Origin: Trypanosoma brucei
Taxonomy: Eukaryota
Direction of reading: 5' to 3'
Assembly: GCA_000002445.1 (NCBI GenBank)
Contig: AE017150.2
Span: 64,001 to 128,000 of the forward strand
DNA length: 64,000 nucleotides
Shown here: positions 2,766-58,679 of the stretch, piece after piece
How the letters are laid out: the number at the start of each line of letters is the position of its first letter
Position numbering within the stretch: position 1 is the stretch's first letter
The notes under the pieces: model-generated
What the model saw: only the letters and a program-made list of their open reading frames with translations
What the model was told of the DNA's origin: nothing
Database searches by the model: none
Program-made: the position numbers and the translations under genes

Positions 2766-5222
2766 TCAGGCAGCGGGGCCACCAGCAATAGCGTTTGGTT
2801 CATCCTGGGTGATCTCCTTAACAATATTCCCTTCCATCTTCACTTGAAACTGGTTGATTTTATTCCACAACTCTGTAGTATGATCGCCTCTGCCCCCAAC
2901 TGGTTCGCACTTCTGCCTCTCCTCGATTGGCTTGCTGTCACTGTACTGTATGTAAATCAGCTCCCATTTCAAGTTTCTTGCGAGCTTATCCCATTCACCA
3001 AACAATTGTTTCATTGCCTTGATAAACTTATCTACCTTCTCTCGTGTCGTGTGATGCGTTGGTGCCACTGTCGCCTGGAGCAGAACAATTGTTGTTGTAA
3101 TGATCGCTCTTCCTTCTCTATCAACAGCTGGCTCAGTTACAAAGAAAAAGGCGTCCACAACGGGGAAATTTCCCTGTACAGGTCGGTAGAAGCACCCAAC
3201 CTCAATGTCTTGGCCTGTCGTTTCGGGGTTAAACTGACGAAGTGAAGTTGGAACACGTCCCACGGCATTACCACTTGCCAGAACGGATACATTTGAATCC
3301 ATTTCTTCTCCAACGCGAGGGAGATACCGCAGGTGCGTCACAATCGTCTGCACAACATTTCCCATCGTGAAGGCATATACGCCCACATTTTCAAATTCAT
3401 CAGCGGCCCGCTCTTCTTTCCCACGAAAAACCTTTCGAAGGTAATTGTCTCGCATACATGCTGTGTTCGCCCACACTCTCAATTTCTGCTCAATATCAAT
3501 GGAAACAGCTCTGTTTCTGCATTCTTCTCCATTCTCAGTTACAACCCGGACCAACTTAGCTAACATGTAAGTAGTCCCGTCCTGGCGCCATTGAACTCGA
3601 CTATTCAGCACCTTCATGTAGTGACTATCATCGCCTCTACTGATTTCTGCCAGTGCCTCATTTATTTCTCTAACGCGGCCCTTGTAGCGTTTTTCACCTT
3701 CCAGTACTTGGCGGGCCAGTGGGCCCACCTTCTTAATCCATCCCAATGTTTTCTGCCATTCATTCTCAAGGTTTATGATGTGAGCTTCGGTGATTTTACT
3801 TTCCTCCAACTTCGACAGCCGCCTCCACGCAACCGCAGCCTTCAGTTCCACCTCTTCATAGCAATTGATGCAAAGGAACTCGCAACCCCGTGGTTCCTTC
3901 CAGTCTTTGTAGTTATTTGGATCTGGAGATGTCAACACAATTACGGGCCACGCTCCCGGCAAGTCTGCGGGTATGGGTTGGTGCCTGTCTTTCCAAAAGT
4001 CGTATATAATGTAACCAAGAACTTTTTCAACAACGAAGGCCTCAACAGCATCCAATCCATCTTTTTCTTTTTCATAGAATACAACCTTTCCCGGATGATC
4101 GTTTGTCGCCCTGAAGAAAATATATGCCCTACCCTTCACAAAATAAGCGATATTCCGCAACAGCTCCGAATCGTAATGCAGCAACCTTTGAAGCAGAAAC
4201 GAGCCAACACCAAATGATTTCCCAATACCTGGAGTGCCAACGAGGACGCAAGGAATCTGTTTTTTATTCACGCCTGGCCCTAACCACAAATCCAGCCTGT
4301 GCTTCACGAGATACCACACTCTCATTACCTCTCGACGAATGTACACATCCCCGTCAAACACGTAGTCTCCTGGTTCTTCCGCTTCCTCTTGAATTGCATG
4401 TTCCGGAGTGCTGAAAGAGTTATACGGCCAACCCTCCTGCGAGGTGAGCACAGCAATCTCTAAATTACCGTGACGAGGCAGTGGGTCGCACAAGTCATAA
4501 GGCGTGTGACTGACATTCACCTCCTCTTCTGTCCACAACTCGGGCTCGCCGTCACTATTACCCACCACCTTCATGCCAAGAGGTAAATCATTGTGACCCG
4601 ACTCCACATAACCCCATGTCGCATTGTATATGGATTCATATACTCCTTTCAGTTCGACACCATCAGCTGTTTGGTGAGCTCTTTTCCTTGCTTCTTTGGC
4701 AATGCGCAGTGCACTGTCCAACTTTGTCGCTGCCACGGGACCAACAAATTCCCTTATTTGCGCTGTTGCATTTTCTTCCCATTGGTGAATGTCTTCAATC
4801 CTATTACGAGGCAGATAAATAACTGCCCTCAGTAATTGAAACTCATCAAGCCGCTGTATCCTTCCTAGAAACTTGGCATTCACAATATAATCCTCCGGGC
4901 TCTGAACAAAGACACCCACTGACACATTAGAAGTGCCGAGGGTTTCACCGAAGTGATGATTCAAAAGGTCATGCAATTTCATATCCCTCAAACCCGCAAA
5001 GCGTTGAAGCAATACATCTTCAATAGAACTATTCATCGTCCATGTTGGTCCCTCTTCATCCCCGCGCAGTCTCTTGAGAAAACGCCTTGCCGCATGTAAG
5101 CCATCAGTATAGAAACGCCGCATTGAATTCCACATTGCTAATGCCCTATTGTCTCGTTGTCTAGCAACTGCAAAATTAAAGTAACGTATGAGGAAAATAA
5201 TAGTGTGTGAACAGTGTAACAT
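2766..5222 (-). CDS. RHS: Retrotransposon hot spot (RHS) protein, type-A C-terminus. The 5' end is divergent: the ORF reads through what is 5'-UTR sequence in the paralogs.
   Basis: 818-aa ORF. It has the P-loop 'VLVGTPGIGKSFGVGSFLL' and conserved RHS blocks (KGVYESIYNATWGYVESG, HVYIRREVMRVWY, VVDAFFFV, HPTTREKV). The annotated ATG lies inside the 'gtgtaacataat' motif, which is upstream non-coding in paralogs at 36672 and 47375. The true start is therefore probably a downstream Met. Confidence 0.85.
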   Translation of the reverse strand: MLHCSHTIIFLIRYFNFAVARQRDNRALAMWNSMRRFYTDGLHAARRFLKRLRGDEEGPTWTMNSSIEDVLLQRFAGLRDMKLHDLLNHHFGETLGTSNVSVGVFVQSPEDYIVNAKFLGRIQRLDEFQLLRAVIYLPRNRIEDIHQWEENATAQIREFVGPVAATKLDSALRIAKEARKRAHQTADGVELKGVYESIYNATWGYVESGHNDLPLGMKVVGNSDGEPELWTEEEVNVSHTPYDLCDPLPRHGNLEIAVLTSQEGWPYNSFSTPEHAIQEEAEEPGDYVFDGDVYIRREVMRVWYLVKHRLDLWLGPGVNKKQIPCVLVGTPGIGKSFGVGSFLLQRLLHYDSELLRNIAYFVKGRAYIFFRATNDHPGKVVFYEKEKDGLDAVEAFVVEKVLGYIIYDFWKDRHQPIPADLPGAWPVIVLTSPDPNNYKDWKEPRGCEFLCINCYEEVELKAAVAWRRLSKLEESKITEAHIINLENEWQKTLGWIKKVGPLARQVLEGEKRYKGRVREINEALAEISRGDDSHYMKVLNSRVQWRQDGTTYMLAKLVRVVTENGEECRNRAVSIDIEQKLRVWANTACMRDNYLRKVFRGKEERAADEFENVGVYAFTMGNVVQTIVTHLRYLPRVGEEMDSNVSVLASGNAVGRVPTSLRQFNPETTGQDIEVGCFYRPVQGNFPVVDAFFFVTEPAVDREGRAIITTTIVLLQATVAPTHHTTREKVDKFIKAMKQLFGEWDKLARNLKWELIYIQYSDSKPIEERQKCEPVGGRGDHTTELWNKINQFQVKMEGNIVKEITQDEPNAIAGGPAA

Positions 5223-10100: not shown

Positions 10101-10129
10101 GCACCTTGGTGAGATCACTTTCACTCATT

Positions 10130-15724: not shown

Positions 15725-18700
15725 TTCGCTCTCCTAATAATAATCTTAATTGAGTGTGTTGTGTTATTTCCTTTCTTTGTAACATAAATTTTAAAAAAGG
15801 GATAAAAGATGAGGAAATTTAAAATGGATACGCTTATAAACCAAAGCAAATATACAACCAATAAATATTAGGAATTAATATGGCAGGCGGAAACTATTTA
15901 TTGAAATTAGGATTCAATACAAATCTTATCATGTGTTTAGAACTCACAGCAACTTAAGCACAAATAAGGTATGACAGTATGAAAAAATTTTTCTCTTGGG
16001 AGGAAAAACTCAAACAACAATTTCCATTCAGAACACACAATCATTCCAAAAAAAAATAATATACATATATGTATGTATTGAAAAGCAAAAAAAATAAATG
16101 TGGCATTGCCATGAGAAATAGGAAACAATAGTTTTAGCGATAAATCATGCAAAACGTAGAATACTCGGTTGCATACAGAAAAGTGCCTTACGTACCTTAC
16201 GAAATTTAAAAAAACAAAATACTGAATGTAACGATAAATATAAAACATTATCTTCACACTTCAAACCAGACACGTATTAAGCAAGAGAAAATAATTCATA
16301 TAATCTCATACATATGTTATGACGGGTATTGCATGCAGTACCATATAAAGGAAGTGTAACTCATATAACATTTTCAAAAAAAGATATTGAATGGTTGTTT
16401 GCTACCATCAATTACATTTCCAATGCCTGATTACACTTTTATATGCATGAAGGAAGTTACTGATCATAACTTTGACATGCTCGAGAATCCATAACACAAA
16501 GCGACAGCTGCATGCAATTAAAAATAAAACATAAAAACAACATCCGAATTCATTTACTGACAGATGAGTGCGAGTTATTCACCCAAACTTCATAGCTGCA
16601 AACATAAACTCGCCGTTGCCAAAAGGAAATAATCCCGCATAAATATTGAGTATCTGAAAATGATAGCAACGGGTTTCCATTTTTGAAATATATGCATAAA
16701 CTACATGAGGTATATGAAGCCGTATTGGTAAAGTGTCACTACGCATGTTGCAATTTACTATCAGAAGTGTCTTCCTTATTTTATTTCTTTTGTTACTGTA
16801 ACTCATGAGCATCGTTCATTATTCTTTACAATACAACTGTAAGTCATTTTGCATTTTTACATATTTCCTTATTCCCTCATACTGGAAGTATTCCACATAT
16901 AATATTCCTCAATATCGTTCACAAAATAAAAATAATTTCATTTTCTTCTGCATTCAGTTGCTCGTGTAGCAGTGTGCACACTAATCATCCATAAAGTTTT
17001 TAATTTGCCAAATACATCATTACGAAACTATTTTCCACAAATAAACAAACAAACAAATCATTGGGACAATATCTTTGAGATATTTCCTTTACTATATTTG
17101 CAGTTCAGTAGTGAATAAAAGAAACTTTTCTGTATAATTCAACACATGGTGGAATTGCACAGAAATGTGATGGTACTTATAATCAATAAGTTCTCAATTT
17201 TCCTCACACGGTCTCCTTTCATGCCTTTACATCCTTATATAATTCACAGAGAATTACTGCAATTTCTTTCATATGCTTTCAAGATTCCATATGTCACAAT
17301 ACAAATAATATATATATATATATATCCTCCTACATAATTTGCACATAATATTGCTTAACATATAAATTATCACAAACCTATGATATTACACTCTTCCTAA
17401 GAATAATAGAATCAAATCATTTCTATTTTGCATCATTACATGAAGCTTTGGAAAAGGAAAGAAAAAGAATCAAACAAAAGGTAATGTAAAGAACACAGTT
17501 TTTTAATACAGAATATAACTTGTTTGTGAATTTCAGATGCAAACACAAAATGTTCAAACAGGGAAACAGTAAAGGACGGTACTGGTGATGTAAGCACAAA
17601 TTAATCAAAAATAGAAACATAAATAAATTTGAAACTTATAAAAACACAAATATATATGACACAAATATTTACCACATATTATAATTCGCCACCCTCACAC
17701 TTGAATTATAAAGAGGACATAACACACATATGTGGTAAAACTAATACAACTCGAATATACGTATGTGCCATCTTATTAACATAATCATTCTAATATTTAC
17801 TCAGTATGTATGTCTGTGTGTAGAAATGATGAAATGTAATTGTAACAAATCAGGCACAACACAAACAAAATATATGCATTATATTATTCTCTAAAAAGAA
17901 GAATAAAAATCAAGAAATATTACGCAACTTTTCTCACAAGTAATTTTGTTTCTGTATATATATATATATATAACACGACAGCTAACAACATTAAACTCTC
18001 AATTCCATAATATCTGACACCTGAAGTGATAATTAGCAGCGGATGCCTTTAACAAAAAACAACAGAAATAACAACATCAAAGCATGTTTTGAGAGCTTAA
18101 ATAAACTTCCTCATGGATAAACCATTTGTACGAAGTTTGAGTGCCAAGTAGGAGGAACAAAGAAAAAATAAAAAAAAGAAGAATTAAATGGTAAAACAAT
18201 TGCGTGTGATATAACTAAAGGATTTGTTAGGCACTACACTCATTAAACTCCAGTTTCATAAAAATACTGTAAGGCATAATATTTACTGCTTTACCGGTTA
18301 TGTGCCTCCAGCAAGCAATAATAAATACTTCGAGTATTATTCGATTTCTGATGCTATGAAGTGTGTAATAAATTAGTGCATGAGTAAAATATTCAAATGT
18401 TGGTGTTCACTTCAGATTATAAACTCTGCACTATGAATGTCTCGCGATGTTTATAATTTGAGAGAGCAAAAGTGACGGCGCTACTATTTATTTCTTCCAG
18501 TTCATGAATATATAAATATATTTATACATATATAATCAGATATGACATGCAAAAGCGTTTAAACATCAGGCATGAACATCTTTCCATCCATTTAAAGTAA
18601 GACGATACAATAAGGTAAGTTTAGGATGAAGTGAAGGTATCATAATGTTAATATCTTCCTTCAAGCGGAGGATTCAATTCAAATAGGCGTACTTCACAAA

Positions 18701-19840
18701 CAATAGTAAAATAACTGAGAAAACTTATATCACTTAATCGTTATTTCCTTCAATTCTTATTTTGAATCGCTCTGTACCGTCACACCTTCAATAAAGTATA
18801 TAGTGACGCATTTCATACATCCTCCCTAAGCCATCTCTCATAGTCATAGTTCTCAACAGCAATAATAAAAAATAATGAATAGTTTAGTTCTTACCTTCCC
18901 TTTTTTACTATCGACAAGAAAGATATACGAAATAATTATCATGCTGAATAAACAGTAAGGTTTCCTCATTATCCAACACAAAATATGAATTGAAACGATA
19001 ATTTACTAACGAAGCGGAAGTGTCTGAAAGCGTCTTTAACCCGTCTCCTGTGCGGGGCGAAGAGGGTTGTGTTGTGTGGGCTTTCTAAAAATTTCACTCT
19101 CTTGCAGACAGCTGCGTAAATAAACGGGGAGTACAGGTGGGTTTAGAGAAATATAACCGTACAAAATAATACTCTGCACTCCTAAGTCCAAAACAACCAT
19201 TCGTAATGCAGGTTTTCAAAATACACGACATCATCTCAACAAATTGTAATTATTTTTTTTGCATAATGTCCTCCAGAAGACAGAACAACAGATGACACAG
19301 TGAAATAACACATGACAAACAAGGAATATAACCGCACATCCTCAGCAGTAAATGTTTCAGTTTCTCCTTTAAAAAAAAAAAAAGAAAAATAAAACAGTTT
19401 CACACGTGTGGTCCAAAAGCTGCATCAGCCAATACAATATCTTGACACCTTGTCACGCAGTCTTGCCTCAAGAAGAAAATAAATCATTCATCTCTGCTTT
19501 CCTTAGTTGATAAATGAGATCCCATGCTGTGTTAACTCACGTCTCCATTCAAAAAGTTGACTCAACGTTGTGACGAGGCAGTGACCAAAAACAATCCAAA
19601 TGCAATTCTAAATTTCTTCATCATATGCTTTCAGTTTTATTACACATTTCCCCAACCATTCCGAGTACTAACAGGAATAATTTGGTTCTATAATAATGCA
19701 TGTGTTTTCTACAGCTCTTTCATTTTGTTATGATCCGCACAAAAATTATATATGTGGTTGTTGATTCGTCCTGTCAATCAAAATAATAATCATAATAATT
19801 AATTTTCCCCTTTTCTTCATTTTTTCTATTAGCACATGCG
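15725..19840. repeat. Inter-RHS spacer. It has the type-B 5'-flank at 15725-16285, then joins the upstream module part-way (from 'aataattcatataatctcatacatatg') and continues into the distal spacer module.
   Basis: The type-B 5'-flank is shared with 25464-26020 and 30084-30480. The remainder is colinear with 6540-10100. Confidence 0.7.
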
Positions 19841-22880: not shown

Positions 22881-25463
22881 TTACGCGTCTTCACCTCCTT
22901 CCACGTCGTCCATTGCTACGTCACCTCGCCCCTCCACAACCTCTTCACGAGCGCGCCGCCTTCCCGCCAGTCCCATCAATGCTGGTGCATCTCGCATGCC
23001 AGATTCTCGGCGATATGCCTGAATTAATTCCGCTTGCATCGTTTCCTTGAGTGTCACTTGGAATTGGTCGATGGATTCCCAAAATGTTTGCGGTCCCAGA
23101 GGACCTCCGTCCTCACCTCTATCTCTATCGGGGGGTCCTCCGCAAAGTTGCCTGTGGGTTATCGTGCCACCGTTAACCGAATTAATGTATATCATTTCCC
23201 AAGCCATGTTACCCGAAAACGTGTTCCAGTCGGAAAAATAACTTGCTATGTTTTCTCGGAACTTCTGCACCTTATCCGTAGTGGTGGGGTGCCTCTCCGA
23301 CTTGGTTACTTGTAAAAGCACAGCTATATTTGGAGTGGTCGGTGGCGCTGTTCCGTCACGGTTTCTCCTGAGCCGCCCCTCAACGAAAAAAAAGCCATCC
23401 ACCACGGGTTCATTGCCTGTGGCAGGGAGGTAGAGAACCATGTGTTCACAGCGTTCAATTGGTCGCTGTTGGGCCGCAGGTAAGGCCTTCTGCCCAATGA
23501 GTCTCAACTGCTGAGGAGCCATGTCGTTCAGTATGCTTCGACGGTCAGCTATTTCTCTGCCTCGTCGCAGGTATTTCAAGTTGTTTGCGATAACTTTAAA
23601 AACTCGAGGGAAAAGAAGCGAAAGCAACGCAAGCCTTTCAAAAGCGTTGGCCCCGACACTCTCGTCTGACATTATAATCTCCTTTGACGTCATCTCCACA
23701 ATAAGAATGCCAAATAATGTGCAAATCAACATATTCCAAATGTTGACAGAAAGCGATCTGCAACGATATGATTCGACATTGACAGTCCCAGAGCTTACCC
23801 GCACTATCTTCACCAATTTGTGCGTTACCTTATCATTTTGCCAGCCCTTAGATTTACTAATAATCTTATCATATTTCTTTCCGTTATCGCTATCGAGCTG
23901 CCTAGCTTCTTTACGCACACTTTCCAGTCGTTCGTCATAGTCAGGGGCTGAGAAAACAAAACGAGGCAGTGGACCAACCATGTCAATGCGCTCTTCCACA
24001 ATTTTCCACTCGCTTTCAAGCTCCTCCTTTAACTGCTGCCTCGTTTTGTCGCGCGGCACCTCCTCCGAAAGCACACACAGCTTTTTCCATGCCACAAATG
24101 CCTTCATGTCACGCACATCATCGCAGTTTATAATAATTCGGCGGCCTCCCGTGTCCTTTGCCCACTCCTCGTAATGTGCCGTATCCGGGGAAGTGAGAAC
24201 AGTTATACCCCAACTCAAATGGCACAGCTCATCAGGCGGTGTAAGTAAGCGCTTACCGATGTCAACAATGATGTGCCCTTTTTTTTTCTTGGATACTAAC
24301 GCAGCTATTGCGTCAACGGCATCTTCCGGGACTTTATACCTCTCAACCCTCCCCTCTTCTCCGGGTTTCTTGTTATATATTAAGTAAGCGATTTTACCCA
24401 CGAAATATGCAACAACATCAAGCATTCCATCATTGAAGTGAAGCAATGAATGAAGCAAAAATGATCCAACTCCATACGACTTTCCAATACCAGGTGTACC
24501 AATAACAATATGTATCGGTGTTCTCCGAGCTGTCTTTTCCACCCACCATGTTTGCAGCCCTCGTTGGATTATATACCACACGCGCATAATTTCACGACGG
24601 ATGTATACATGTTTAAAATTGTTCTTGCGTATATTAACGTCCCTCGATGCAAACCTGTCGTATGGCCAACCCTTCTCCGAAGTGAGAACAAAAATCTCCA
24701 AACCATTGGGTCTCTCCGGCACTCGTGCATCAAGATTCGCAGGATCAGGAGTTATATCCACCTCCGCTTCGGTCCATATGCGCTGTGGTTTTCCATTAAA
24801 CACTTTCATTCCAAGTGGCTCTCTACGATAACCCGACATTACATAACTCCATTTCGCATCATAAATGGAATCATACACTCCTTTAATTTCGACAGCACTA
24901 GCAGCTGTTTGGGCAGCTCGTTCCAATGCTACATCGAGTGCATCATTCAACATGTTAGTGACAATAATCCAAAGCCGCCCTCCATCTCTCTGTCCACGAA
25001 TATTCACCTGTAACCCGGCCTTTACTACCTCATCTGCTTGTTGCCAGCGCTGAAGATTCAATATTCCCTCTCTGAACAACAGGGGGTAAGCAGTAGCAAA
25101 AACTTTGTACACTTGATACTCTGTTGTCGCGAATATTCGATTGAGCGCATTAACGTCATTAATATACTCTTCGCATCGTTGTACAAAGGCAAACATTGAT
25201 GCTCTCAGGAGACGTTGATCCAAGTCGATATCATCGAGTAAATTACGCCTCAAATAATCATTTACACTCACATTTTCAGGATGAGCCCGACCATTCAGCA
25301 AAACTGCTTCAATGCAGCTGAAAAGTCTCCATTGTGGTTGGTTATTATTCTCCACTCGTTGCTGGACTGCTGGAGGTTCCGCATCGTTACGCGCAGCCTC
25401 CTCACGCTCTCGTCTCCTTCCCTCAATGTCACCCCTTCCTTCAATAGGAACCTGTTGATTCAT
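22881..25463 (-). CDS. RHS: Retrotransposon hot spot (RHS) protein, type-B. Intact.
   Basis: 860-aa ORF. Close to 13151..15724 but has internal patches matching other paralogs. Contains a homopolymer run encoding 'SKKKKGHIIVD' at about 24270-24300. Confidence 0.9.
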   Translation of the reverse strand: MNQQVPIEGRGDIEGRRREREEAARNDAEPPAVQQRVENNNQPQWRLFSCIEAVLLNGRAHPENVSVNDYLRRNLLDDIDLDQRLLRASMFAFVQRCEEYINDVNALNRIFATTEYQVYKVFATAYPLLFREGILNLQRWQQADEVVKAGLQVNIRGQRDGGRLWIIVTNMLNDALDVALERAAQTAASAVEIKGVYDSIYDAKWSYVMSGYRREPLGMKVFNGKPQRIWTEAEVDITPDPANLDARVPERPNGLEIFVLTSEKGWPYDRFASRDVNIRKNNFKHVYIRREIMRVWYIIQRGLQTWWVEKTARRTPIHIVIGTPGIGKSYGVGSFLLHSLLHFNDGMLDVVAYFVGKIAYLIYNKKPGEEGRVERYKVPEDAVDAIAALVSKKKKGHIIVDIGKRLLTPPDELCHLSWGITVLTSPDTAHYEEWAKDTGGRRIIINCDDVRDMKAFVAWKKLCVLSEEVPRDKTRQQLKEELESEWKIVEERIDMVGPLPRFVFSAPDYDERLESVRKEARQLDSDNGKKYDKIISKSKGWQNDKVTHKLVKIVRVSSGTVNVESYRCRSLSVNIWNMLICTLFGILIVEMTSKEIIMSDESVGANAFERLALLSLLFPRVFKVIANNLKYLRRGREIADRRSILNDMAPQQLRLIGQKALPAAQQRPIERCEHMVLYLPATGNEPVVDGFFFVEGRLRRNRDGTAPPTTPNIAVLLQVTKSERHPTTTDKVQKFRENIASYFSDWNTFSGNMAWEMIYINSVNGGTITHRQLCGGPPDRDRGEDGGPLGPQTFWESIDQFQVTLKETMQAELIQAYRRESGMRDAPALMGLAGRRRAREEVVEGRGDVAMDDVEGGEDA

Positions 25464-26770
25464 TTCACTCTCCGAATAATAATCCTAACTGAGTGTGTTG
25501 TGTTATTTCCTTTCTTTGTAATATAAATTAAGAAAAGAATTAAGATGAGGGAATTTAAAATGGATACACTTATAAACCAAATCAAATATACAATTAATGA
25601 ATATTAGGAATTAATATGGCAGATGGAAACTATTTATTTAAATTAGGATTCAATACAAATCTTATCATGTGTTGGGGCGTCACGGCAACTTAAGCACAAA
25701 TAAGGTATGACAGTATGAATAAACATTTCTCTTGGGATGAAAAACTCAAACAACAATTCCCAGTTACTGCACACCATCATTTCAGAAAAAATATATATAC
25801 TTAGATATATTTATGTATGGAAAAGCAAAAAAAATAAATAAATGTGGCATTACCACGAAAAATGGGAAACAATAGTTTTAATGATAAATCATGCAAAACG
25901 TAGAAAACTCGGTTGCATACAGAAAAGTGCCTTACTTACCTTACAAAATTAAAAATATACCAAAAGTAAAAATAAATATAAAACATTATCTTCACAAATC
26001 AAACCAGACACGTATTAAGCAAGAGAAAATAATTCACATAATCTCATACATATGTTATGATGGGCATTGCATGCAGTACAATTTAAAGGAAGTGTAACTC
26101 ATATAACATTTTCAAAAAAAAAAGTAATGAATGGTTGTTTGCTACCATCAATTACATTTCCAATGCCTAATTACACTTTTATATGCATGAAGGAAGTTAC
26201 AGATGATAACTTTGACATGCTCGAGAATCCATAACACAAAGCGACAGCTGCATGCAAATAAAAAAATATAAATATAAATAACATCCGAATTCATTTACTG
26301 ACAGATGAGTGCAATTCATTCACCCAAACTTCATAGCTGTAAACATAAACTTGCTTCTGCCAAAAGGAAAAAATCCCGCATAAATATTGAGTATCTGAAA
26401 ATGATAGCAACGGGTTTCCATTTTTGAAATATATGCATAAACTACATGAGGTATATGAAGCCATATTGGTGAAGTGTCATTACGCATGTTGCAATTTACT
26501 ATCAGAAGTGTATGCCTTATTTTATTTCTTGTGTTACTGTAACTCATGAGTATCATTCATTATTCTTTACAATACAACTGTAAGTCATTTTGCATTTTTA
26601 CATATTTCCTTATTCTCTCATACTGGAAGTATTCCACATATGAGATTCCTCAATATCGTTCAAAAAATAAAAATAATTTTATTTACTTCTGCATTCAGTT
26701 TCTCGTGTAGCAGTGTGTACACTAATCATCCATAAAGTTTTTAATTTGCCAAATACATCATTACGAAACT
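25464..26770. repeat. Type-B 5'-flank plus a partial upstream spacer module. It ends where the type-A 3'-flank begins.
   Basis: Colinear with 15725-17040. Confidence 0.7.
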
Positions 26771-27627
26771 ATTTTCCACAAATAAACAAACAAATAAACA
26801 ACCAAACACTTTTAAATGTTGTTGTGAAACGAAAATTGAATCACGGAAAATTGTGGGGCGCACACGTAATGGGCACCATGAATGCCTCTTTGGATATTCC
26901 TCAATGGCTTTTCACCAGCATCATCAACTTACTTTTTGTGTAAAAAAAAACAAAAAAGAAAAAAAGAAAAAAGAAATTTAAAAAGAAAACAAAAAAGAAA
27001 TAAAGGTACAAATGCATTAATAAACCCAACTCCTCAGCAGGAAATCAAGAACAGGAAGCCACGAAAAGCGTATGGCACATATGATTTTCACCTCTCAGTT
27101 ACTTAAGGTGGATCGCATGATTTACCCACCTTCTAAAAACACACCCTCCGAGAGGCCCGATTAAAAGAAAAAAAAACGCTATGACGGTTGAAAAGACGTT
27201 TTTCATAAACCTTCACTTTATACGTGAGGATGCATGAATAAACAATGATAACGATGAGAATGCTAACGGAAACAATGACGAACCGTGAGGATCATAGAAA
27301 AAAAAACACATACTTTTACATTAAGGAAACTTAATAAATAACAAAATATAAATATTCCCTACACAGAGGTATAGGGAGTGTTCGTCAACTTCGTAATGCT
27401 AATCAAAAAGCCTTCAAATGTATCGATCATTCGTGCAGTCAATCAAATAAGAAGTAACATGTACTACACGCACAAAAGCACACTTATAAAGCCTACAAAC
27501 CCACTTGCCCCCTTTTAGAGAATACCACTCTCTAGTCAGTGATAGGAGAGGTGATATTAAAAGTATTCCCTTTATAATTATTTCTTGTTTTTCAATTCGT
27601 TGCAACATAACATGCAAAGGTGTTGCA
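26771..27627. repeat. Type-A RHS 3'-flank module, copy 2. Its A-rich tract is expanded at 26941-27000.
   Basis: Near-identical to 1926-2765 apart from poly-A/(AAAAG)n expansion. The hairpin aaggtgg...ccacctt is conserved at 27106-27134. Confidence 0.7.
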
Positions 27628-30083
27628 TCAGGCAGCGGGGCCACCAGCAATAGCGTTTGGTTCATCCTGGGTGATCTCCTTAACAATATTCCCTTCCATC
27701 TTCACTTGAAACTGGCTGATTTTATTCCACAACTTTGTAGTATAATCGCCTCTGCCCCCAACTGGTTCGCACTTCTGCCTCACATCGATTGGCTTGCTGT
27801 CACTGTACTGTATGTAAATCAGCTCCCATTTCAAGTTTCTTGCGAGCTTATCCCATTCACCAAACAATTGTTTCATTGCCTTGATAAACTTATCTACCTT
27901 CTCTCGTGTCGTGTGATGCGTTGGTGCCACTGTCGGCTGGAGCAGAACAATTGTTGTTGCGGTGATCGCTCTTCCTTCTCTATCAACAGCTGGCTCAGTT
28001 ACAAAGAAAAAGGCGTCCACAACGGGGAAATTTCCCTGTACAGGTCGGTAAAGGCACCCAACCTTGATGTCTTGGCCTGTCGTTTCGGGGTAAATATGAC
28101 GAAGTGAAGTTGGAACACGTCCCACGGCATTACCACTTGCCAGAGCGGATACATTTGAATCCATTTCTTCTCCAACGCGAGGGAGATACCGCAGGTGCGT
28201 CACAATCGTCTGCACAACATTTCCCATCGTGAAGGCATATATGCCCACATTTTCAAATTCATCAGCGGCCTGCTCTTTTTTCCCACGAAAACCCTTTCGA
28301 AGGTAATTGTCTCGCATACATGCTGTGTCCGCCCACACTCTCAATTTCTGCTCAATATCAATGGAAACAGCTCTGTTTCTGCATTCTTCTCCATTCTCAG
28401 TTACAACCCGGACCAACTTAGCCAACCTGTATGTAGTCCCGTCCTCGCGCCATTGAACTCGACTATTCAGCACCTTCATGTAGTGTTCAGCATCGCCTCT
28501 ACTGATCTCCTCCAGTGCCCCATTTATTTCTCTAACGCGGCCCTTGTAGCGTTTTTCACCTTCCAGTACTTGGCGGGCCAGTGGGCCCACCTTCTTAATC
28601 CATCCCAATGTTTTCTGCCATTCATTCTCAAGGTTTATGATGTGAGCTTCGGTGATTTTACTTTCGTCCAACTTCGACAGCCGCCTTCACGCAACCGCAG
28701 CCTTCAGTTCCACCTCTTCATAGCAATTGATGCAAAAGCGCTCGCAAGCCCGTGGCCGCTTCCAGCGTCTGTAGTTATTTGGATCTGGAGATGTCAACAC
28801 AATTACGGGCCACGTTTCCGGCAATTTTGTCGGTATGGGTTCATCTCTCTCTTTCGCAAAGTCGTATATAATGTAACCAAGACCTTCTTCATCAGCCAAG
28901 TCATTGACAGCATCCAATCCATCTACTTCTTTTTCATAAAATACAACCTTTCTCGGATGATCATTTGTCGCCCTGAAGAAAATATATGCCCTACCCTTCA
29001 CAAAATAAGCGATATTCCGCAACAGCTCCGAATCGTAATGCAGCAACCTTTGGAGCAGAAACGAGCCAACACCAAATGATTTCCCAATACCTGGAGTGCC
29101 AACGAGGACGCAAGGTATTTGTTTTTTATTCACGCCTGGCCCTAACCACAAATCCAGCCTCTGCTTCACAAGATACCACACTCTCATTACCTCTCGACGA
29201 ATGTACACATCCCCGTCAAACACATGGACCTTTGGCTTTTCCTCACCCTCTTGAATTGCTCTTCGCGGAATGCGGAAACGATTATACGGCCAACCCTTCT
29301 GCGAGGTGAGCACAGCAATCTCTAAATTACCACGTCGAGGCAGTGGGTCGCACAAATCGTAAGGCGTGTGACTGACATTCACCTCCTCTTCTGTCCACAA
29401 CTCGGGCTCGCCGTCACTATTACCCACCACCTTCATGCCAAGAGGTAAGTCATTGTGACCCGACTCCACATAACCCCACGTCGCATTGTATATGGATTCA
29501 TATACTCCTTTCAGTTCGACACCATCAGCTCTTTGAGCAGCTCGCTTTTCCGCTTCCTTGAGTGCATTATTCAACATGTTAGTGACAATAATCCAAGTCT
29601 GCTCTCCATTTCTCAGTCCACGAATATTCACCTGTAACCTGGCCTTTACTTCCTCATTTGCTTGTTTCCAGCGCACGAGATTCAATATTCCCTCATTCTC
29701 ATAAAAACCATAGACGCTGACAAAACGTTTGTACACTTTATACGGTATTGTCGCGAATATTCGATTGAGCGCATTAACGTCATTAATATACTCTTCACAT
29801 CGTTGTAAACCCCAGATATTGATACATTATTTTCTTCGTTCACATTGTATCTTGTGCCAAAATTAAGCTTCAAAAAATCATTCAACATCACATTTTGAGG
29901 ATGTGGCAGACCATTCAGCAAAACTGCTTCAATGCAGCTGAAAAGTCTCCATTGTGGTTGGTTATTATTCTCCACTCGTTGCTGCACTGCTGGAGGTTCC
30001 GCATCGTTACGCGCAGCCTCCTCACGCTCTCGTCTCCTTCCCTCAATGTCACCCCTTCCTTCAATAGGAACCTGTTGATTCAT
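27628..30083 (-). pseudogene. RHS: Chimeric RHS pseudogene: type-B 5' flank and N-terminus joined to a type-A body and C-terminus. It is disrupted by a nonsense codon and an N-terminal indel.
   Basis: The ORF is split into 29682..30083, 28687..29736 and 27628..28671. At 28684-28686 the minus-strand codon is TGA, where gene 2766..5222 has TGG at the homologous position ('...AAVAW' with W at the stop position). The N-terminal ORF loses frame around 29800-29830 relative to 13151..15724 and 22881..25463. The P-loop 'VLVGTPGIGKSFGVGSFLL' is still encoded. Confidence 0.85.
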
Positions 30084-30930
30084 TTCACTCTCCGAATAAT
30101 AATCCTAACTGAGTGTGTTGTGTTATTTCCTTTCTTTGTAATATAAATTAAGAAAAGAATTAAGATGAGGGAATTTAAAATGGATACACTTATAAACCAA
30201 ATCAAATATACAATTAATGAATATTAGGAATTAATATGGCAGATGGAAACTATTTATTTAAATTAGGATTCAATACAAATCTTATCATGTGTTGGGGCGT
30301 CACGGCAACTTAAGCACAAATAAGGTATGACAGTATTAATAAACATTTCTGTTGAGAGGAAAACTCAAACAACAATTCCCGGTTACTTCACACCATGATT
30401 TCAAAAACAATAATATACTTACACATATATTTATGTATTGAAAAGCAAAACAAATAAATAAATGTGGCATTGCCATGAAAAAAAAAACAGTTTCACACGT
30501 GTGGTCCAAAAGCTGCATCAGCCAATACAATATCTTGACAACTTGTCACGCAGTCTTGCCTCAAGAAGAAAATAAAACATTCATCACTTGTTTACTTAAT
30601 TGATAAATGAGATCCCATGCTGTGTTAACTCACGTCTCCATTCAAAAAGTTGACTCAACGTTGTGACGAGGCAGTGACAAAAAACAATCCAAATGCAATT
30701 CCAAATTTCTTCATATTACGTTTTCAGTTTTATTACACATTTCCCCAACCATTCCAAGTACTAACAGGAATAATTTGGTTCTATAATAATGCATGTGTTT
30801 TCTACAGCTCTTTCATTTTGTTATGATCCGCACAAAAATTATATATGTGGTTGTTGATTCGTCCTGTCAATCAAAGTAATATAATAATTAATTTTCCCCT
30901 TTTCTTCATTTTTTCTATTAGCACATGTGC
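30084..30930. repeat. Truncated spacer: the type-B 5'-flank joined directly to the tail of the distal spacer module. About 4 kb of spacer is missing.
   Basis: The junction is near 30480, where '...tggcattgccatgaaaaaaaaaacagtttcacacgtgtggtcc' jumps to sequence that sits about 3.5 kb further along in full units (cf. 9640). Confidence 0.65.
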
Positions 30931-33431
30931 ACCTTGGTGAGATCACTTTCACTCATTTGCACTGATTGGTCAACACTATTTAGTTCGTTATTCAACACAC
31001 TCCCTTACATGTCCTCTTCTCACCATTTATAACCCACACGAGCAGCATCAAATATAAATTGTGAAGAGGTATGAGATCACAAGGAGCTCGCTCTCATTGA
31101 GAAGGTTGGATGCGTCATATATATATAATCATGTAATCCCTTTCCATTTCAACAATACGCAAACCTCAACTGCGGAATCGACTTTGAATGAGTTGACCTC
31201 GTCAGCATGAAACGGGGCCCGCCAAGTGGCATGAACATTAATCTTATCAGTAAACATGTGTTTGAGGTGTTGGTAATAAATGGGGTCAAATAAAACATAA
31301 GTGCGTATCATCTCCCCCGTTATGCCCGAGTGGAAAATATACATCATCTCCTTGAATATAATTGTATCCATGTTGTATCAATTCCTCATTCAGCTCTTCA
31401 TCCTTATCGGTACCCAAAGGCATTGCCATCGCCTAACTTTTCCGTGAATGCACTCACGCCTTTAAGCTAACGAGTTCCAGCAACTTTCCATCTGTCATAC
31501 GGCTCGGGAATCCATGAGAATTTATGATCATATCTGTGCAAATGCCTTTACTCATTGAAGGGCATGTTAACACACCATCAGTGATGAGATCCACTACTCC
31601 CTCCAGCCCGTGCCGTGAGGAAAACTTATTTCAGACCTCGGGACCGCGAACTTCTCTCGTAGCAACTTTAACTTTATTGTTATACATTCATCGATATATC
31701 CGAGTCACTGGAAGGTGAGAGATGACCACATTTGGTTCACAACAGCAGGCTGAGGGTATTTATTATATTCAAGAAAATTAGGTCTTGGTTCCTTGAAAGG
31801 CACGGGAGTTTATTTGTTTACCAAAATATCAAACTGACGAATAACCGCACCTTTACTACTGGCAATACCATCAATATTAAAGGCATTGTGTCTCGCAACA
31901 TTTCAATCTGTTGGAAGAATTATATCATACATACTCACCGTTGGGAAGTCTTTCCAGTTCCATCTCATGCTTACAAAAAACAACACGCCACCCATAGCCA
32001 CAATTGAGCGAACTGCGGTTGTGTACACCTTTGCGTCTTCAATATTGTAACCTCTATAGCTCATAATGCATACCATTGTATTAATTCCCGCATCTAATAT
32101 TTTGTAGTTGCTTAGGTTCATAGCCTTCGTCCAGCAAAGGGATAGTTGAGAGTAAGCACTCAACATAAGTACTGTGTCCATTTCTAATGTACTGAATATA
32201 CGCAATGGTTCCAACAGTTTGCTTGCCCATGGCTGACTGTAATGTGTTTCGTGCAAATTGATTGTGATGTGGAAAGGAGAATAATGCTAGCGACAACTCC
32301 AAGTGAGTCTCGTGTACTGCTCAATGTCTTTGTGGTGAACTGCTATAAGATAGTCATTCGCTTCATCATATAAGTCAATGAATTCCACAACAAACCTTCA
32401 GCTAAAATATCGTTAATCGAGCACTTGCCTGGACTCAAGTTATCCAGGTGTTAAGAAATTACGGCGTGTTTCCCATCGCTAACGAAAACATACAACCTCA
32501 CGATCCTTCCGCCAACACAAACAATTTGAACAATATTCTGGCGGTCATTTATCGCAATAGAAACATGCTGATGCAAGCGGCCTGTGTTCCTCAGGGTTCG
32601 TAATACATCCCAACACAAACGGCTCATGTATCGATAAACGCACATCAGCACTTCATTGAGGAAAACTGTGTAGTATTTAAGAAATTCGTTAAGGCTGATA
32701 TAATCTATTTCCTCCACTCCAATATTGCACGCATCCGCATGTAAACAAACAAATTATCCATGTTGAGTGTTACCTGACTAAGAATAGCAAAATTATTAAC
32801 CAAACAGCAACAACTTTTACCCTCTGGGGTATCGCAAGGAGGGATATACACCATTCCCCATTGACTTGAATAGAGAAATAATGATCCGCACATGTGGGTC
32901 AATAGACGAGGTCATGACCACTCCACTGCTGCCGTTACATATGATCACTGCATGGTTTTCGTATCAATGTTGATGATGATATGGGATTTGCTGCTGGAGG
33001 CAACCAACAACATAAGTTTAAGGTTCCCACGTGTGGAGAGAGGCCTAACTGCCAACCCTCAACCAGGATAACAGAAGTGATTATAAGGAAAGAGAAGACA
33101 ACATATCATAGCATGTTTGCACACCGACAAATAATTGAAGAAAGAGAGTAAAAGAGAGAGAGAGAGAGAGGAAAATGGACACAATCACGTCACCAGCTGC
33201 GTGTCTGCGAAGAACACCATCAAGAGCTGCTCCATAACTGCAACCATAACTAACATGTATAATATAATTATAACAGCTCGTATATGAAACAGCAAATCCA
33301 GTAATTGCTTCTAATGTTTGCATATTTCGCTCCGTCACAATCTCTCTCCCATGACACCTACTGGAAATACAACTCAGAGGAGTTTTAGTTGAGGCATGTT
33401 TCCAATACGCTCTCTCTACCACGGATGGCAA
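30930..33431 (-). pseudogene. RPB2-family C-terminal pseudogene fragment, copy 3.
   Basis: ORFs 31129..31371, 31903..32256, 32081..32302, 32451..32717, 32705..32902 and 33081..33431 carry the same motif series ([65 protein letters not shown]). Confidence 0.6.
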
Positions 33432-34072
33432 AGAAGCAAAAAGTACTATTACATTTTTGTTCCTTTTATCATTGGCCTATAGATCCCTATCTCTACACTG
33501 ATGGAAAATTTAGATTGTATAAATGAAAAGAAGATGTGAAGAGTTAGCGTAGTATAATTCAATCCTTTAGTTGGTAATAGCACAAATGAAAACAAAACGT
33601 TATAATGTTTTCTTACGTCCGTCGATAACATTATATCTGTCTTTCTTTGTGACCCTTAAGATTACGATGTGGCTTAACTCCAGTTACACGTTAGCCTATA
33701 AAATACTGCACTCCTTCTACTTCCTCCACTACTTTGTCGTCTCGCCACGTTTCCTTGGAACCTTCATTACATTCATACCATGGCGTCCTTGCTGCACCCA
33801 AAAGAAAAAGCAGCCACACCTCCTTGCCCGCTGTGAGGTTACTGAATATACTTCGGACGTCACTGATTATGTGCACCTCTGTGTTACTCTTGTTTTGACT
33901 GCAGTCCGCTGAACTTGGTTTCCTTTCAAACTGCCACACCCCAAGCGCTGCCCACTGCTGAGGAGATTGAACCGCATATATTCACCTCCTTCCACAGCGT
34001 CCGTTGCGTGTCAAACAACAGCGACTGGCCTTACTCCAGCTATTGGGTTCACCTTCGCTTTGCTTTCATCGC

Positions 34073-36586
34073 TCACCTCCCCTGTGCCTTTTCTGCCTTC
34101 TGAAAGGCAATCATCAGCTGTGCATTCATTTCGTCCCTCAACGTTACCTGGAATTGTTCAATCGTTTCCCAAAATGTTTGCAGTTGTTCCGCCTGCCTGG
34201 CAGGGATAACTTCGTCGTCGTTCGCCTCACATTTTTGCCAATTGGTAATTACGGCGCCATCCACTGAGTTTATGTATATCATTTCCCAAGCCATGTTACC
34301 CGAAAACGTGTTCCAGTCGGAAAAATAACTTGCTATGTTTTCTCGGAATTTCTTCACCTTCGCCGTGGTGGTGGGGTGCCTGTCTAACTTGGTTATTTGT
34401 AAAAGGACAATTGTCTTCGGTTTTGGCGCTTTTTTCGCTTGCCTTCCAGGCGACATCGTGAAGCGCCCCTCAACGAAAAAAAAGCCATCCACCACGGGCT
34501 CGTTGGCAGTAGAGGGAGTGTAGAGCACCATGTATTCACACTTCTCAATTGGTTGCTGGCCGGCCGTTGGTAAGAACTCCGATCCAGTGAGGCACAACTG
34601 CTGAGGAGTCATGCTACTCAGTATACTTTGCTTTCCCCTCAGCTTCTCAGGTGGACGGAGGTGTCTCAAGTTCTTTGCCATCACCTCGAGAACTTGAGGA
34701 TTGACTATCGCAAACAACGCATGGCTTTCAAATGAAATGGAAGCGGCACTTCTGTTTCCCATCATGAGCTGGGACTCTGCTGTTTTTCGCGCAGTAATGC
34801 CAAGCAGCGCCCAAAGTAGCAAGATCCTTATGTGTCCGGACAGCTCTTTGCAGCGATATGAATCTCCGGAAACTCCATTTCCACGTGCACGGACTATCTG
34901 TACCAACTTGTGCGACACCTTTTCAGTTTGCCAGTTCACTGATGACCTAAAAAGATCCTCGTAACCACTTTTATCATTAGCATCGAGGCCTCTTATTTTT
35001 TTTGCCATAGCCTCCATTCGCACGCCGTGCCCCACAGCGTCGTAAACGGCACGAGGCACCGGGCCGGCCACTGCAATACGCTGCTTTACAGTTTCCCATT
35101 CGTCCTTTAGTCTTCCTCTTAACTCTTGTTTCGCCGTGTTGGATACCTTTTCACCTAATGCTACTGATAAATTCTTCCATGCCACAAACGCCTTCATGTC
35201 ACGCACATCATCGCAGTTTATAATAATATGGCGGCTTCCCGTGTCCTTTTCCCACTCCTCATAATGTGCCGTATCGGGGGAAGTGAGGACAGTTATACCC
35301 CAATCCAAATGGCGCAGCTCACCAGGCGGTATAAGTAGTTCGTTACCGATGTCAACAATGATGTGACCTCTTTTTTTCTCGAATACTAACGCAGCTATGG
35401 CGTCAACGGCATCTTCCGGGACTTTATACCTCTCAACCCTTCCCTCTTCTCCGGGTTTCTTGTTATATATTAGGTAAGCGATTTTACCCACGAAATACGC
35501 AATGACATTAAACATTCCATCATGGAAGTGAAGCAGTGAATAAAGCAAAAATGATCCAACACCGTATGATTTACCAATACCAGGTGTACCAATAACAATA
35601 TGTCTCGGTGTTATCCGAGCTGTCCTTTCCACCCACCATGTTTGCAGCCCTCGTTGAATTATATACCACACGCGCATAATTTCACGACGGATATACACAT
35701 GTTTATAAATTTCCTCGCACCTCTCAGTGTCACTTGTTTTAAACCTGTTGTATGGCCAACCTTCCTCCGAAGTGAGAACGAAAATCTCCAAACCATCGGG
35801 TCTCTCCTCAATCTCTGCATCAACATTGGTAGGATCAGGAGTTATATCCACCTCCGCTTCGGTCCAAATGCTCTGTGGTCTTCCATCGAACACTTTCATT
35901 CCAAGTGGCTCTCTACGATAACCCGACATTACATAACTCCATTTCGCATTATAAATGGAATCATATAATCCTTTCAGTTCGACAGCACCACCAGCTGCTA
36001 GGACAGCTCGCTTTTCCGCTCTCTTGGCGGCCGCCAACGCTCCATCCAACCTTCCCCTCGCCATGGGACCAACAAATTCTCTTATTTCCACTGTCCCCTT
36101 CTCCTCCCACTGACTGAGGTAGTAAATTTCCTTTTCATCAAGGTACTCTACCTTCTCAGACAGATCAATAGCTGTCTTCACTGTTTTAAACTCATCAGTG
36201 CCTTGTATATCCTCAAGAATCTCAGCATCAACAATATATCTTCTGGGATTCTTAACAAACAAAAACATGGCCACATTCTCTGTGTTATACGTGTTTGAGA
36301 AGTATTGATTCAAAAGGTCATGCAATTTCATATTACGCAGAACCTCATACCGTTGCAGCAGCGCATCTTCCAGCAGCACATTCCTCACCTTACTATCCAT
36401 CGTCCAGTTGGGCCTCTCTTCAGTTCTCTGCCGTATTTGTGGAGGCTGAGCAGCAGCAGCAGCAGCAGCAGCAGGAGGCGGTACATTTTCATCTCGCGGT
36501 CTCCTCATGGGCCCTTCAATATTACCTGCCACTTGTTGGTTTTCATTATTTCCTTGTGGAGCTGCGGGACTATTTGCTCTTGACAT
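34073..36586 (-). CDS. RHS: Retrotransposon hot spot (RHS) protein, type-C N-terminus (MSRANSPAAPQGNNENQQVA..., poly-Ala). Intact.
   Basis: 837-aa ORF. P-loop 'IVIGTPGIGKSYGVGSFLLYSLLHF'. Conserved RHS blocks. Its unique 3' flank diverges from the other units after 'ccagttacacgttagcc'. Confidence 0.9.
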   Translation of the reverse strand: MSRANSPAAPQGNNENQQVAGNIEGPMRRPRDENVPPPAAAAAAAAQPPQIRQRTEERPNWTMDSKVRNVLLEDALLQRYEVLRNMKLHDLLNQYFSNTYNTENVAMFLFVKNPRRYIVDAEILEDIQGTDEFKTVKTAIDLSEKVEYLDEKEIYYLSQWEEKGTVEIREFVGPMARGRLDGALAAAKRAEKRAVLAAGGAVELKGLYDSIYNAKWSYVMSGYRREPLGMKVFDGRPQSIWTEAEVDITPDPTNVDAEIEERPDGLEIFVLTSEEGWPYNRFKTSDTERCEEIYKHVYIRREIMRVWYIIQRGLQTWWVERTARITPRHIVIGTPGIGKSYGVGSFLLYSLLHFHDGMFNVIAYFVGKIAYLIYNKKPGEEGRVERYKVPEDAVDAIAALVFEKKRGHIIVDIGNELLIPPGELRHLDWGITVLTSPDTAHYEEWEKDTGSRHIIINCDDVRDMKAFVAWKNLSVALGEKVSNTAKQELRGRLKDEWETVKQRIAVAGPVPRAVYDAVGHGVRMEAMAKKIRGLDANDKSGYEDLFRSSVNWQTEKVSHKLVQIVRARGNGVSGDSYRCKELSGHIRILLLWALLGITARKTAESQLMMGNRSAASISFESHALFAIVNPQVLEVMAKNLRHLRPPEKLRGKQSILSSMTPQQLCLTGSEFLPTAGQQPIEKCEYMVLYTPSTANEPVVDGFFFVEGRFTMSPGRQAKKAPKPKTIVLLQITKLDRHPTTTAKVKKFRENIASYFSDWNTFSGNMAWEMIYINSVDGAVITNWQKCEANDDEVIPARQAEQLQTFWETIEQFQVTLRDEMNAQLMIAFQKAEKAQGR
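36451..36474. repeat. (CAG)8 / (CTG)8 trinucleotide repeat encoding the poly-Ala tract of RHS 34073..36586. The paralog has (CAG)5 at 47152-47166.
   Basis: Direct count in the sequence. The protein reads PPPAAAAAAAAQPP versus PPPAAAAQPP in 44732..47269. Confidence 0.85.
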
Positions 36587-56200: not shown

Positions 56201-56244
56201 ACAAGATAACTTTCTTGATGAATTTCATTCATGATCGCACGCGT
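50231..56244. other. ORF-poor, GC-richer, non-repetitive region lying between the leftward-transcribed RHS array and the rightward-oriented genes. The leading interpretation is a divergent strand-switch region that may include degenerate element debris.
   Basis: No ORF longer than 209 aa in any frame. No recognisable protein motifs in the longest ORFs (50630..51082, 51135..51764). The base composition differs clearly from the AT-rich spacers. Flanking gene orientation is minus to the left and plus to the right. Confidence 0.4.

Positions 56245-58599: not shown

Positions 58600-58679
<80 letters not shown>

What the first reader, a model, noticed from the sequence alone, without database searches (positions are those of the whole stretch)
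27628..30930. Chimeric RHS pseudogene with a single-base nonsense mutation, inside a unit that lacks about 4 kb of spacer
The gene has a type-B promoter-proximal flank and N-terminus fused to a type-A body, C-terminus and 3'-flank. That points to recombination between subfamilies. It is inactivated by TGG to TGA at 28684-28686, where the homologous codon in gene 2766..5222 encodes W in '...AAVAWRRLSKLEESKITEAH'. A frame-disrupting indel lies near 29800-29830. The spacer upstream is also deleted, with a junction near 30480. A single nonsense change in an otherwise conserved ORF suggests recent inactivation.
Basis: seen in the sequence. Interest (0 to 1): 0.55.

Follow-up and report, generated by a model that had tools for sequence, protein, structure and literature searches.

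The report
Ordinary trypanosome RHS2 pseudogene
This is one dead copy of a retrotransposon hot spot (RHS2) gene in the well-known RHS gene array on Trypanosoma brucei chromosome 2, knocked out by a stop codon and a one-base deletion; it is an ordinary example of a family in which most copies are pseudogenes.

Summary
The window is the RHS tandem array of Trypanosoma brucei brucei TREU927 chromosome 2. Four neighbouring ORFs match its RefSeq proteins exactly; gene 2766-5222 matches GenBank RHS2a exactly.

27628-30083 (minus strand) is a full-length RHS2 copy with two lesions:
- TGG to TGA at 28687-28689, one codon from the stated position.
- A net 1-nt deletion between 29808 and 29807.

The upstream spacer lacks about 3.3 kb, not about 4 kb. 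The junction lies at 30477-30484 in a short T-rich microhomology.

The "chimera" reading is only partly right. An intact paralogue, H25N7.01 (818 aa), has the same MNQQ-type N-terminus on an RHS2 body. It is 89.5% identical to the pseudogene over residues 1-190, against 70-75% for the neighbouring "type-B" genes. The architecture is therefore inherited, not made at this locus.

What is recent is a 428-nt tract (29909-30336) with one mismatch to the adjacent gene 22881-25463, which indicates gene conversion.

The short downstream spacer is the same as that of the intact RHS2 gene. The retroelement hot spot is empty.

RHS pseudogenes (78 of 118 annotated copies) and RHS recombination are already documented. 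Interest is low.

The parts
27628..30083 (-). RHS2 pseudogene. The conceptual CDS is 818 codons after repairing one frameshift and one stop.
   Evidence: ORFs and three-frame translation. Pfam DUF7578, RHS_N and RHSP on the repaired translation. The body is 90% identical in protein to RHS2a, i.e. gene 2766-5222.
28687..28689 (-). Nonsense codon TGA, codon 466. It is TGG (Trp) in all compared RHS2 copies.
   Evidence: At 28687 the minus-strand base is A here and G in gene 2766-5222, the T. b. gambiense L001 copy and the T. equiperdum L002 copy.
29806..29815 (-). Frameshift site: net 1-nt deletion between 29808 and 29807, with neighbouring substitutions. It cuts the DUF7578 domain.
   Evidence: Three-way nucleotide alignment with genes 22881-25463 and 13151-15724. 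The frame changes from 0 to 2. DUF7578 is truncated in the 133-aa N-terminal ORF.
29909..30336 (-). Recent gene-conversion tract from the adjacent downstream gene 22881-25463. It covers the 5' flank plus codons 1-58.
   Evidence: 428 nt with 1 mismatch to 25289-25716. The same interval differs at 38-39 positions between the other copies.
29570..29908 (-). Remainder of the MNQQ-type N-terminal module. It is closest to the intact paralogue H25N7.01, not to the window's type-B genes.
   Evidence: Sliding identities and sequence comparison.
29077..29100 (-). P-loop GTPGIGKS. The retroelement insertion hot spot just downstream (about 29060) is unoccupied.
   Evidence: In T. b. gambiense L001 a poly(A)-ended RIME/ingi-like element abuts TTCTGCTCC at exactly this point.
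30477..30484 (-). Deletion junction in the upstream spacer, within a T-rich microhomology ((A/T)TTTTTC). About 3.27 kb is missing relative to 19383..16113.
   Evidence: Self-BLAST, junction alignments, exact coordinates.
30085..30476 (-). Retained MNQQ-type 5' flank, about 390 bp.
   Evidence: Aligns to 25464-25862 and 15725-16118.
26799..27627 (-). RHS2-type 3' flank, about 830 bp. It runs straight into the 770-bp element 26028-26798 that normally lies upstream of the next gene.
   Evidence: The alignment 1168-4698 to 26028-29560 (93.9%) is continuous across the same junction as in the intact RHS2 gene.
30477..33707 (-). Retained part of the spacer, belonging to the 3' side of gene 34073-36586. 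It contains decayed pieces of an RNA polymerase second-largest-subunit gene.
   Evidence: 95-97% identical to 9645-12874, 19384-22604 and 41111-44338. Pfam Rpb2_4 and Rpb2_6 on ORFs within 31129-32717.

Best explanation
27628-30083 is a non-functional copy of an RHS2 gene in the tandem RHS array of T. brucei TREU927 chromosome 2.

Shown: it belongs to an RHS2 lineage that carries the MNQQVPIEGRG-type N-terminal module. That architecture also exists as an intact 818-aa gene, H25N7.01.

Inferred history:
(a) An RHS2 cassette with its own 830-bp 3' flank, joined to the 770-bp upstream element of the next unit, was duplicated within the array. The intact RHS2 gene at 2766-5222 has the same structure.
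(b) About 3.3 kb of the upstream spacer was lost by recombination between short T-rich microhomologies.
(c) The 5' flank and first 58 codons were recently overwritten by gene conversion from the adjacent gene 22881-25463.
(d) The reading frame was destroyed by a 1-nt deletion in codon about 92 and by TGG to TGA at codon 466.

The order of (b) to (d) is not resolved. The only translatable product from the native start is a 133-aa N-terminal peptide without the P-loop domain, so no RHS2 function is expected. Like the rest of the array, it is probably still transcribed polycistronically.
For: Identity of the locus:
- The ORFs at 13151-15724, 34073-36586 and 44732-47269 equal TREU927 proteins XP_951483, XP_951485 and XP_951486 exactly.
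- 22881-25463 equals XP_951484, and 2766-5222 equals GenBank RHS2a AAL14353.1.
- No protein accession lies between XP_951484 and XP_951485, which is where the pseudogene sits.

Family: Pfam RHSP, RHS_N and DUF7578.

Lesions. These are the only two frame-breaking changes.

Inherited architecture: H25N7.01 has the same module combination, and the N-terminus is 89.5% identical to it against 70-75% for type-B genes.

Conversion tract: 1 mismatch in 428 nt, against 38-39 for the other pairs.

Mosaicism: patchy similarity to different RHS2 copies (P0002, H25N7.01, the gambiense copy) fits ongoing segmental conversion.

Deletion junction.

Shared flank: the RHS2-3'flank-to-next-unit junction is the same in gene 2766-5222 and in T. 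b. gambiense L001.

Literature:
- 78 of 118 annotated RHS genes in TREU927 are pseudogenes, by retroelement insertion or a truncated ORF (PMC6393297).
- RHS N-terminal regions are shared among subfamilies that are defined by their C-termini, and RHS pseudogenes can arise by crossing-over in the 5' region (PMC7563717, summarising Bringaud et al. 2002).
Against: - No read-level data or second assembly of this exact locus could be examined, so neither lesion nor the deletion junction is independently confirmed.
- DNA of H25N7.01 was not available, so the N-terminal comparison with it is at protein level only.
- dN/dS does not separate this copy from intact ones, so relaxed constraint after inactivation is not demonstrated.
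- Whether TriTrypDB already lists this copy as a pseudogene could not be checked.
Confidence: 0.85

Rival explanations
1. One reading: a de novo inter-subfamily chimera. A recombination at this locus fused the 5' flank and N-terminus of a type-B gene to a type-A (RHS2) body, and the product then decayed.
For: - The homology partner switches near 29560-29575, from genes 13151-15724 and 22881-25463 to gene 2766-5222.
- 428 nt are virtually identical to the adjacent type-B gene.
- Crossing-over in the RHS 5' region is a documented route to RHS pseudogenes (PMC7563717).
Against: - Outside the 428-nt tract the N-terminal module is only 60-80% identical to the type-B genes. It is 80-95% identical to H25N7.01, an intact RHS2-bodied protein with the same architecture.
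- The fusion therefore predates this copy.
- The intact RHS2 gene in the window also has a 'foreign' 5' flank, so module mixing is a family trait and not a lesion.
Confidence: 0.1
2. Sequencing or assembly artefact. The gene is intact in the organism, and/or the identical tract and the spacer deletion come from mis-assembly of about 94%-identical tandem repeats.
For: - The array consists of 92-97%-identical repeats.
- A 428-nt block identical to the neighbouring unit is about the size of one Sanger read.
- Exact-product look-ups found no independent record of the two ORF fragments.
Against: - Two independent lesions lie 1.1 kb apart, in non-repetitive sequence context.
- The deletion junction sits in a plausible microhomology.
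- An independent assembly, T. b. gambiense FN554974.1, reproduces the RHS2-3'flank-to-type-B-gene adjacency.
- RefSeq annotators left this interval without a protein.
Confidence: 0.06
3. A retained, functional non-coding or truncated element. The copy is kept as a donor for gene conversion among RHS2 genes, as a source of pseudogene-derived siRNAs, or to express the 133-aa N-terminal peptide.
For: - Patchwork similarity shows sequence exchange with other RHS2 copies.
- RHS pseudogene transcripts give siRNAs, and RHS genes are siRNA targets in T. brucei (PMC3683921).
Against: - Nothing specific to this copy was seen: no Rfam match, no inverted partner, and no conservation test was possible.
- Exchange among tandem paralogues is expected without selection.
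Confidence: 0.1

Closest known systems
RHS2 subfamily of T. brucei retrotransposon hot spot proteins (RHS2a, AAL14353.1; Tb927.2.280/380/400)
   Same: - The body from codon about 175 to the end is about 90% identical in protein and about 94% in DNA.
- It has the same length, the same P-loop and the same 830-bp 3' flank joined to the next unit.
   Different: - The N-terminal 190 residues are only 26% identical (MNQQ-type module against the MLHCSH/MWNS-type).
- This copy carries a stop and a frameshift.
H25N7.01 (CAD21858.1, Q8WPT5), an intact 818-aa T. brucei RHS protein
   Same: Same full-length architecture: MNQQ-type N-terminus plus an RHS2 body. The repaired length is the same (818 aa). Identity is 89.5% over the N-terminus and 86% over the body.
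   Different: - It has an intact reading frame.
- It comes from a different locus. A gene from the same BAC-named series (H25N7.12) clusters with a protein on a 1,064,672-bp record, not on the 1,193,948-bp record that matches this window.
Classical RHS pseudogenes split by RIME/ingi at the hot spot downstream of the P-loop (Bringaud et al. 2002, as summarised in PMC7563717 and PMC6393297)
   Same: Same family and the same genomic setting. A very similar RHS2 copy in T. b. gambiense (L001) is interrupted exactly at that hot spot.
   Different: Here the hot spot is empty. Inactivation is by point lesions, which puts it in the 'truncated ORF' class of RHS pseudogenes.
Mosaic RHS genes of T. cruzi generated by gene conversion and unequal crossing-over (PMC7563717)
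   Same: Segmental exchange among paralogues, including in the N-terminal coding region.
   Different: It is a different species, and the T. cruzi examples described are transcribed, intact genes.

Membership tests
RHS (retrotransposon hot spot) protein family | RHSP P-loop domain (PF07999) | tested here: met
   The two ORF halves match model positions 1-139 and 148-312. The repaired protein matches 1-312 with E = 6e-135.
RHS (retrotransposon hot spot) protein family | RHS_N domain (PF20445) and N-terminal DUF7578 (PF24466) | tested here: met
   RHS_N E = 1.2e-57.
RHS (retrotransposon hot spot) protein family | ATP/GTP-binding P-loop motif followed by the retroelement insertion hot spot | tested here: met
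   GTPGIGKS lies at 29077-29100. The hot-spot sequence TTCTGCTCC is present and unoccupied.
RHS2 subfamily (subfamilies are defined by C-terminal similarity) | C-terminal region matching RHS2 | tested here: met
   Residues 191-818 are 90% identical to RHS2a (gene 2766-5222, equal to AAL14353.1), against 36% for the type-B genes.
Pseudogene | Reading frame disrupted relative to intact paralogues | tested here: met
   In-frame TGA at 28687-28689 and a net 1-nt deletion at 29807/29808.
Pseudogene | Lesions real in the organism and no full-length protein made | not testable with these tools
   No reads, alternative TREU927 assemblies or proteomic data are available. Exact-product look-ups returned nothing.
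   The same combination occurs in the intact H25N7.01, which is the nearest relative of the N-terminal module outside the 428-nt tract.

The most novel reading that the evidence does not exclude
The pseudogene and the intact H25N7.01 would mark a second, little-noticed class of RHS2 genes. This class carries the N-terminal module of the nuclear, Pol II-associated RHS types, whereas the cytoplasmic RHS2 copies Tb927.2.280/380/400 have a different module. N-terminal module swapping by gene conversion would then be a way of re-targeting RHS bodies. In that picture this dead copy persists as a conversion donor or siRNA source rather than as junk.
Probability: 0.08. Interest if true: 0.35.

Novelty: already known. 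Interest (0 to 1): 0.08.

Why it matters
It matters little by itself. It is one of the many RHS pseudogenes in the T. brucei reference genome. Both its lesions (truncated ORF) and its mosaic make-up (recombination and conversion among paralogues) are documented features of the family.

The useful outcomes are corrections:
- The exact position of the stop codon.
- The true size and microhomology of the spacer deletion.
- The 'chimeric' architecture is inherited and shared with an intact paralogue.
- The only clearly recent exchange is a 428-nt conversion tract from the adjacent gene.

Tried and rejected
- Exact-product look-ups for the window's genes and for the two pseudogene ORF fragments found nothing. 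The 'same lesion in other isolates' test could therefore not be done.
- The only related loci retrieved were a paralogous locus in T. b. gambiense (L001) and an RHS2 locus in T. equiperdum with the 2766-5222-type 5' end (L002). Neither is the orthologue.
- dN/dS was computed to date the inactivation. It is 0.5-1.3 for all RHS2 pairs, including those with the intact gene, so it is uninformative.
- The original RHS paper (Bringaud et al. 2002) is not held. Its content is cited only through PMC7563717 and PMC6393297.
- The Rfam scan of the whole window gave no match. Tandem repeats in 25.0-34.5 kb are trivial A-rich runs.
- I considered that the pseudogene cassette was inserted into an intact spacer rather than the spacer being deleted. 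I rejected this as less parsimonious. The 3'-flank junction is shared with the intact RHS2 gene, so only one novel junction (30477-30484) needs explaining.
- Stop-codon recoding and programmed frameshifting were considered and dismissed. Nothing supports them, and the two lesions are independent.

Full report
**What the window is**

Six RHS-type genes lie on the minus strand at roughly 5-10 kb spacing. Each carries Pfam DUF7578, RHS_N and RHSP, the "retrotransposon hot spot protein" domains.
- The ORFs 13151-15724, 34073-36586 and 44732-47269 are identical to proteins of Trypanosoma brucei brucei TREU927, XP_951483, XP_951485 and XP_951486. These are encoded on a 1,193,948-bp record.
- 22881-25463 equals XP_951484.
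- The 818-aa translation of 2766-5222 equals GenBank AAL14353.1, "RHS2a". RefSeq starts it at Met30 as XP_951482.

"Type B" is the 857-860-aa kind. Its nearest named relatives are annotated RHS4, at 84-88% identity.

No protein accession lies between XP_951484 and XP_951485, which is where the finding sits.

**Checking the observation**

The minus strand of 27628-30083 translates as an RHS protein in two frames.
- Frame 0 gives MNQQVPIEGRG... for about 92 codons.
- The frame then shifts to frame 2, which runs to the normal RHS2 end (...NAIAGGPAA) with a single in-frame stop.

The stop is TGA at 28689..28687, reading ELKAAVA*RRLSKLDESK. At 28687 this copy has A on the minus strand. Gene 2766-5222, a T. 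b. gambiense copy (L001) and a T. equiperdum copy (L002) all have G (TGG, Trp).

The frameshift is a net 1-nt deletion between 29808 and 29807, with neighbouring substitutions. It falls inside DUF7578.

From 29560 to 27628 there is no indel and no other stop relative to gene 2766-5222. There are 120 substitutions, about 6%, and they occur in patches. Repairing the two lesions gives an 818-aa protein with all three domains.

**The flanks and the spacer**

Self-comparison shows the following.
- 26028-29560 aligns to 1168-4698 at 93.9%. This is the RHS2 body, an 830-bp RHS2 3' flank, and a 770-bp element.
- 29458-30482 aligns to 24831-25862 (88%) and to 15065-16118 (85%).
- 30477-33707 aligns at 95-97% to the gene-distal part of the three long spacers.

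At the junction, spacer sequence ...GAAACTGTTTT(A/T)TTTTTC is followed directly by ATGGCAATGCCAC. In normal units that sequence lies about 3.27 kb further on, after ...CC(C/T)ATTT(T/C)TC. The breakpoint therefore lies in a short T-rich microhomology at 30477-30484.

The spacer here is 3989 bp, against 7156, 7928 and 8145 bp elsewhere. The missing stretch is about 3.3 kb by direct alignment, so "about 4 kb" is an overestimate.

The short spacer downstream of the pseudogene (2164 bp) is not a second deletion. The intact RHS2 gene at 2766-5222 has exactly the same 3' flank joined at the same point to the 770-bp element. A T. b. gambiense locus reproduces the RHS2-flank-to-type-B-gene adjacency.

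**Is it a chimera?**

A sliding comparison shows a mosaic.
- 30336-29909 is essentially identical to the adjacent gene 22881-25463.
- 29908 to about 29570 is closer to gene 13151-15724 (about 85%) than to 22881-25463.
- From about 29570 onward it is RHS2.

The decisive result came from the protein search. The best hit to the repaired translation is an intact 818-aa T. brucei protein, H25N7.01 (CAD21858.1). It has the same MNQQ-type N-terminus on an RHS2 body.

| Compared with | Residues 1-190 | Remainder |
|---|---|---|
| H25N7.01 | 89.5% | 86% |
| Type-B genes 13151-15724 and 22881-25463 | 75% and 70% | 36% |
| RHS2a (2766-5222) | 26% | 90% |

(All values.)

The module combination is therefore inherited from an RHS2 lineage that still has an intact member. 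It was not created at this locus.

The intact RHS2a gene is no less "chimeric". From 5188 upward its flank is that of genes 34073-36586 and 44732-47269.

This fits the published description. RHS subfamilies are defined by their C-termini and share N-terminal regions, and recombination occurs in the 5' region (PMC7563717, summarising Bringaud et al. 2002).

**What is recent**

The 428 nt from 30336 to 29909 covers the 5' flank plus codons 1-58. It differs from the adjacent gene at one position. The same interval differs at 38-39 positions between the other pairs. The Poisson probability of one or fewer mismatches is about 5e-16, using the divergence between genes 22881-25463 and 13151-15724 as background. 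This is best explained by gene conversion between neighbouring copies.

Within the body, patches that differ from RHS2a match other RHS2 copies (P0002, H25N7.01, the gambiense copy). Only 14 positions in 29060-27628 are private to this copy, and the nonsense change is one of them.

dN/dS is 0.5-1.3 for all RHS2 pairs, including those with the intact gene. It cannot date the inactivation.

**Relation to the family's namesake lesion**

The P-loop GTPGIGKS lies at 29077-29100. The hot-spot sequence just downstream is uninterrupted.

In T. b. gambiense L001, a very similar RHS2 copy begins exactly at that point, directly after the poly(A) end of a RIME/ingi-like element. The window's copy therefore belongs to the "truncated ORF" class of RHS pseudogenes, not the retroelement-split class. 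Both classes are described. In TREU927, 78 of 118 annotated RHS genes are pseudogenes (PMC6393297).

**Mechanism and verdict**

Shown:
- It is an RHS2 copy with two frame-breaking point lesions.
- Its N-terminal architecture is inherited.
- It has a recent conversion tract.
- One microhomology-flanked spacer deletion lies upstream.

Inferred:
- The order of these events.
- Continued polycistronic transcription.
- Absence of function.

Not testable here:
- Read support for the lesions and the junction.
- The state of the orthologous locus in other isolates. Look-ups for the ORF fragments returned nothing.
- Expression.

This is an ordinary, already-documented kind of feature in a reference genome. 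The interest is low.

Noticed in passing
window 31129-32717 (-), 10878-11429 (-); equivalents in the other long spacers; L001 13923-14665: Every long spacer of the RHS array holds decayed pieces of a second-largest-subunit RNA polymerase gene (Pfam Rpb2_4 and Rpb2_6). The best solved-structure match is Pol III RPC2. The repeat unit is therefore RHS gene + polymerase pseudogene + AT-rich DNA. The two RHS2 units lack this piece downstream.
   Followed up: partly
L001 (T. b. gambiense FN554974.1) 5900-6398 and 6398-7833: A RIME/ingi-like element with a poly(A) end abuts TTCTGCTCC, the RHS hot spot a few codons after the P-loop. It is followed by the 3' half of an RHS2 copy that is the closest DNA relative of the pseudogene over 29060-27628 and keeps TGG at the mutated codon.
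   Followed up: partly
window 5136-5222 and 5188-7313: GenBank RHS2a (818 aa) and RefSeq XP_951482 (789 aa) use different start codons for gene 2766-5222. Most of the extra 29 codons, all but the first 12, lie outside the stretch (5188 upward) that BLAST aligns to the 5' flank of genes 34073-36586 and 44732-47269. The intact RHS2 gene has a 'foreign' 5' flank too.
   Followed up: partly
window 50250-64000: The RHS array ends near 50.25 kb and GC skew changes sign at about 51 kb. Beyond that lie plus-strand fragments of a receptor-type adenylate cyclase (56745-57398, 57675-57998, apparently frame-broken) and a DUF1181 ORF (60625-61050).
   Followed up: partly
L002 (T. equiperdum CM010673.1) 9500-11809: The T. 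equiperdum RHS2 gene is called only from an internal Met (602 aa), although its 5' region aligns to that of 2766-5222 at about 80%. It may be another 5'-damaged RHS2 copy.
   Followed up: no
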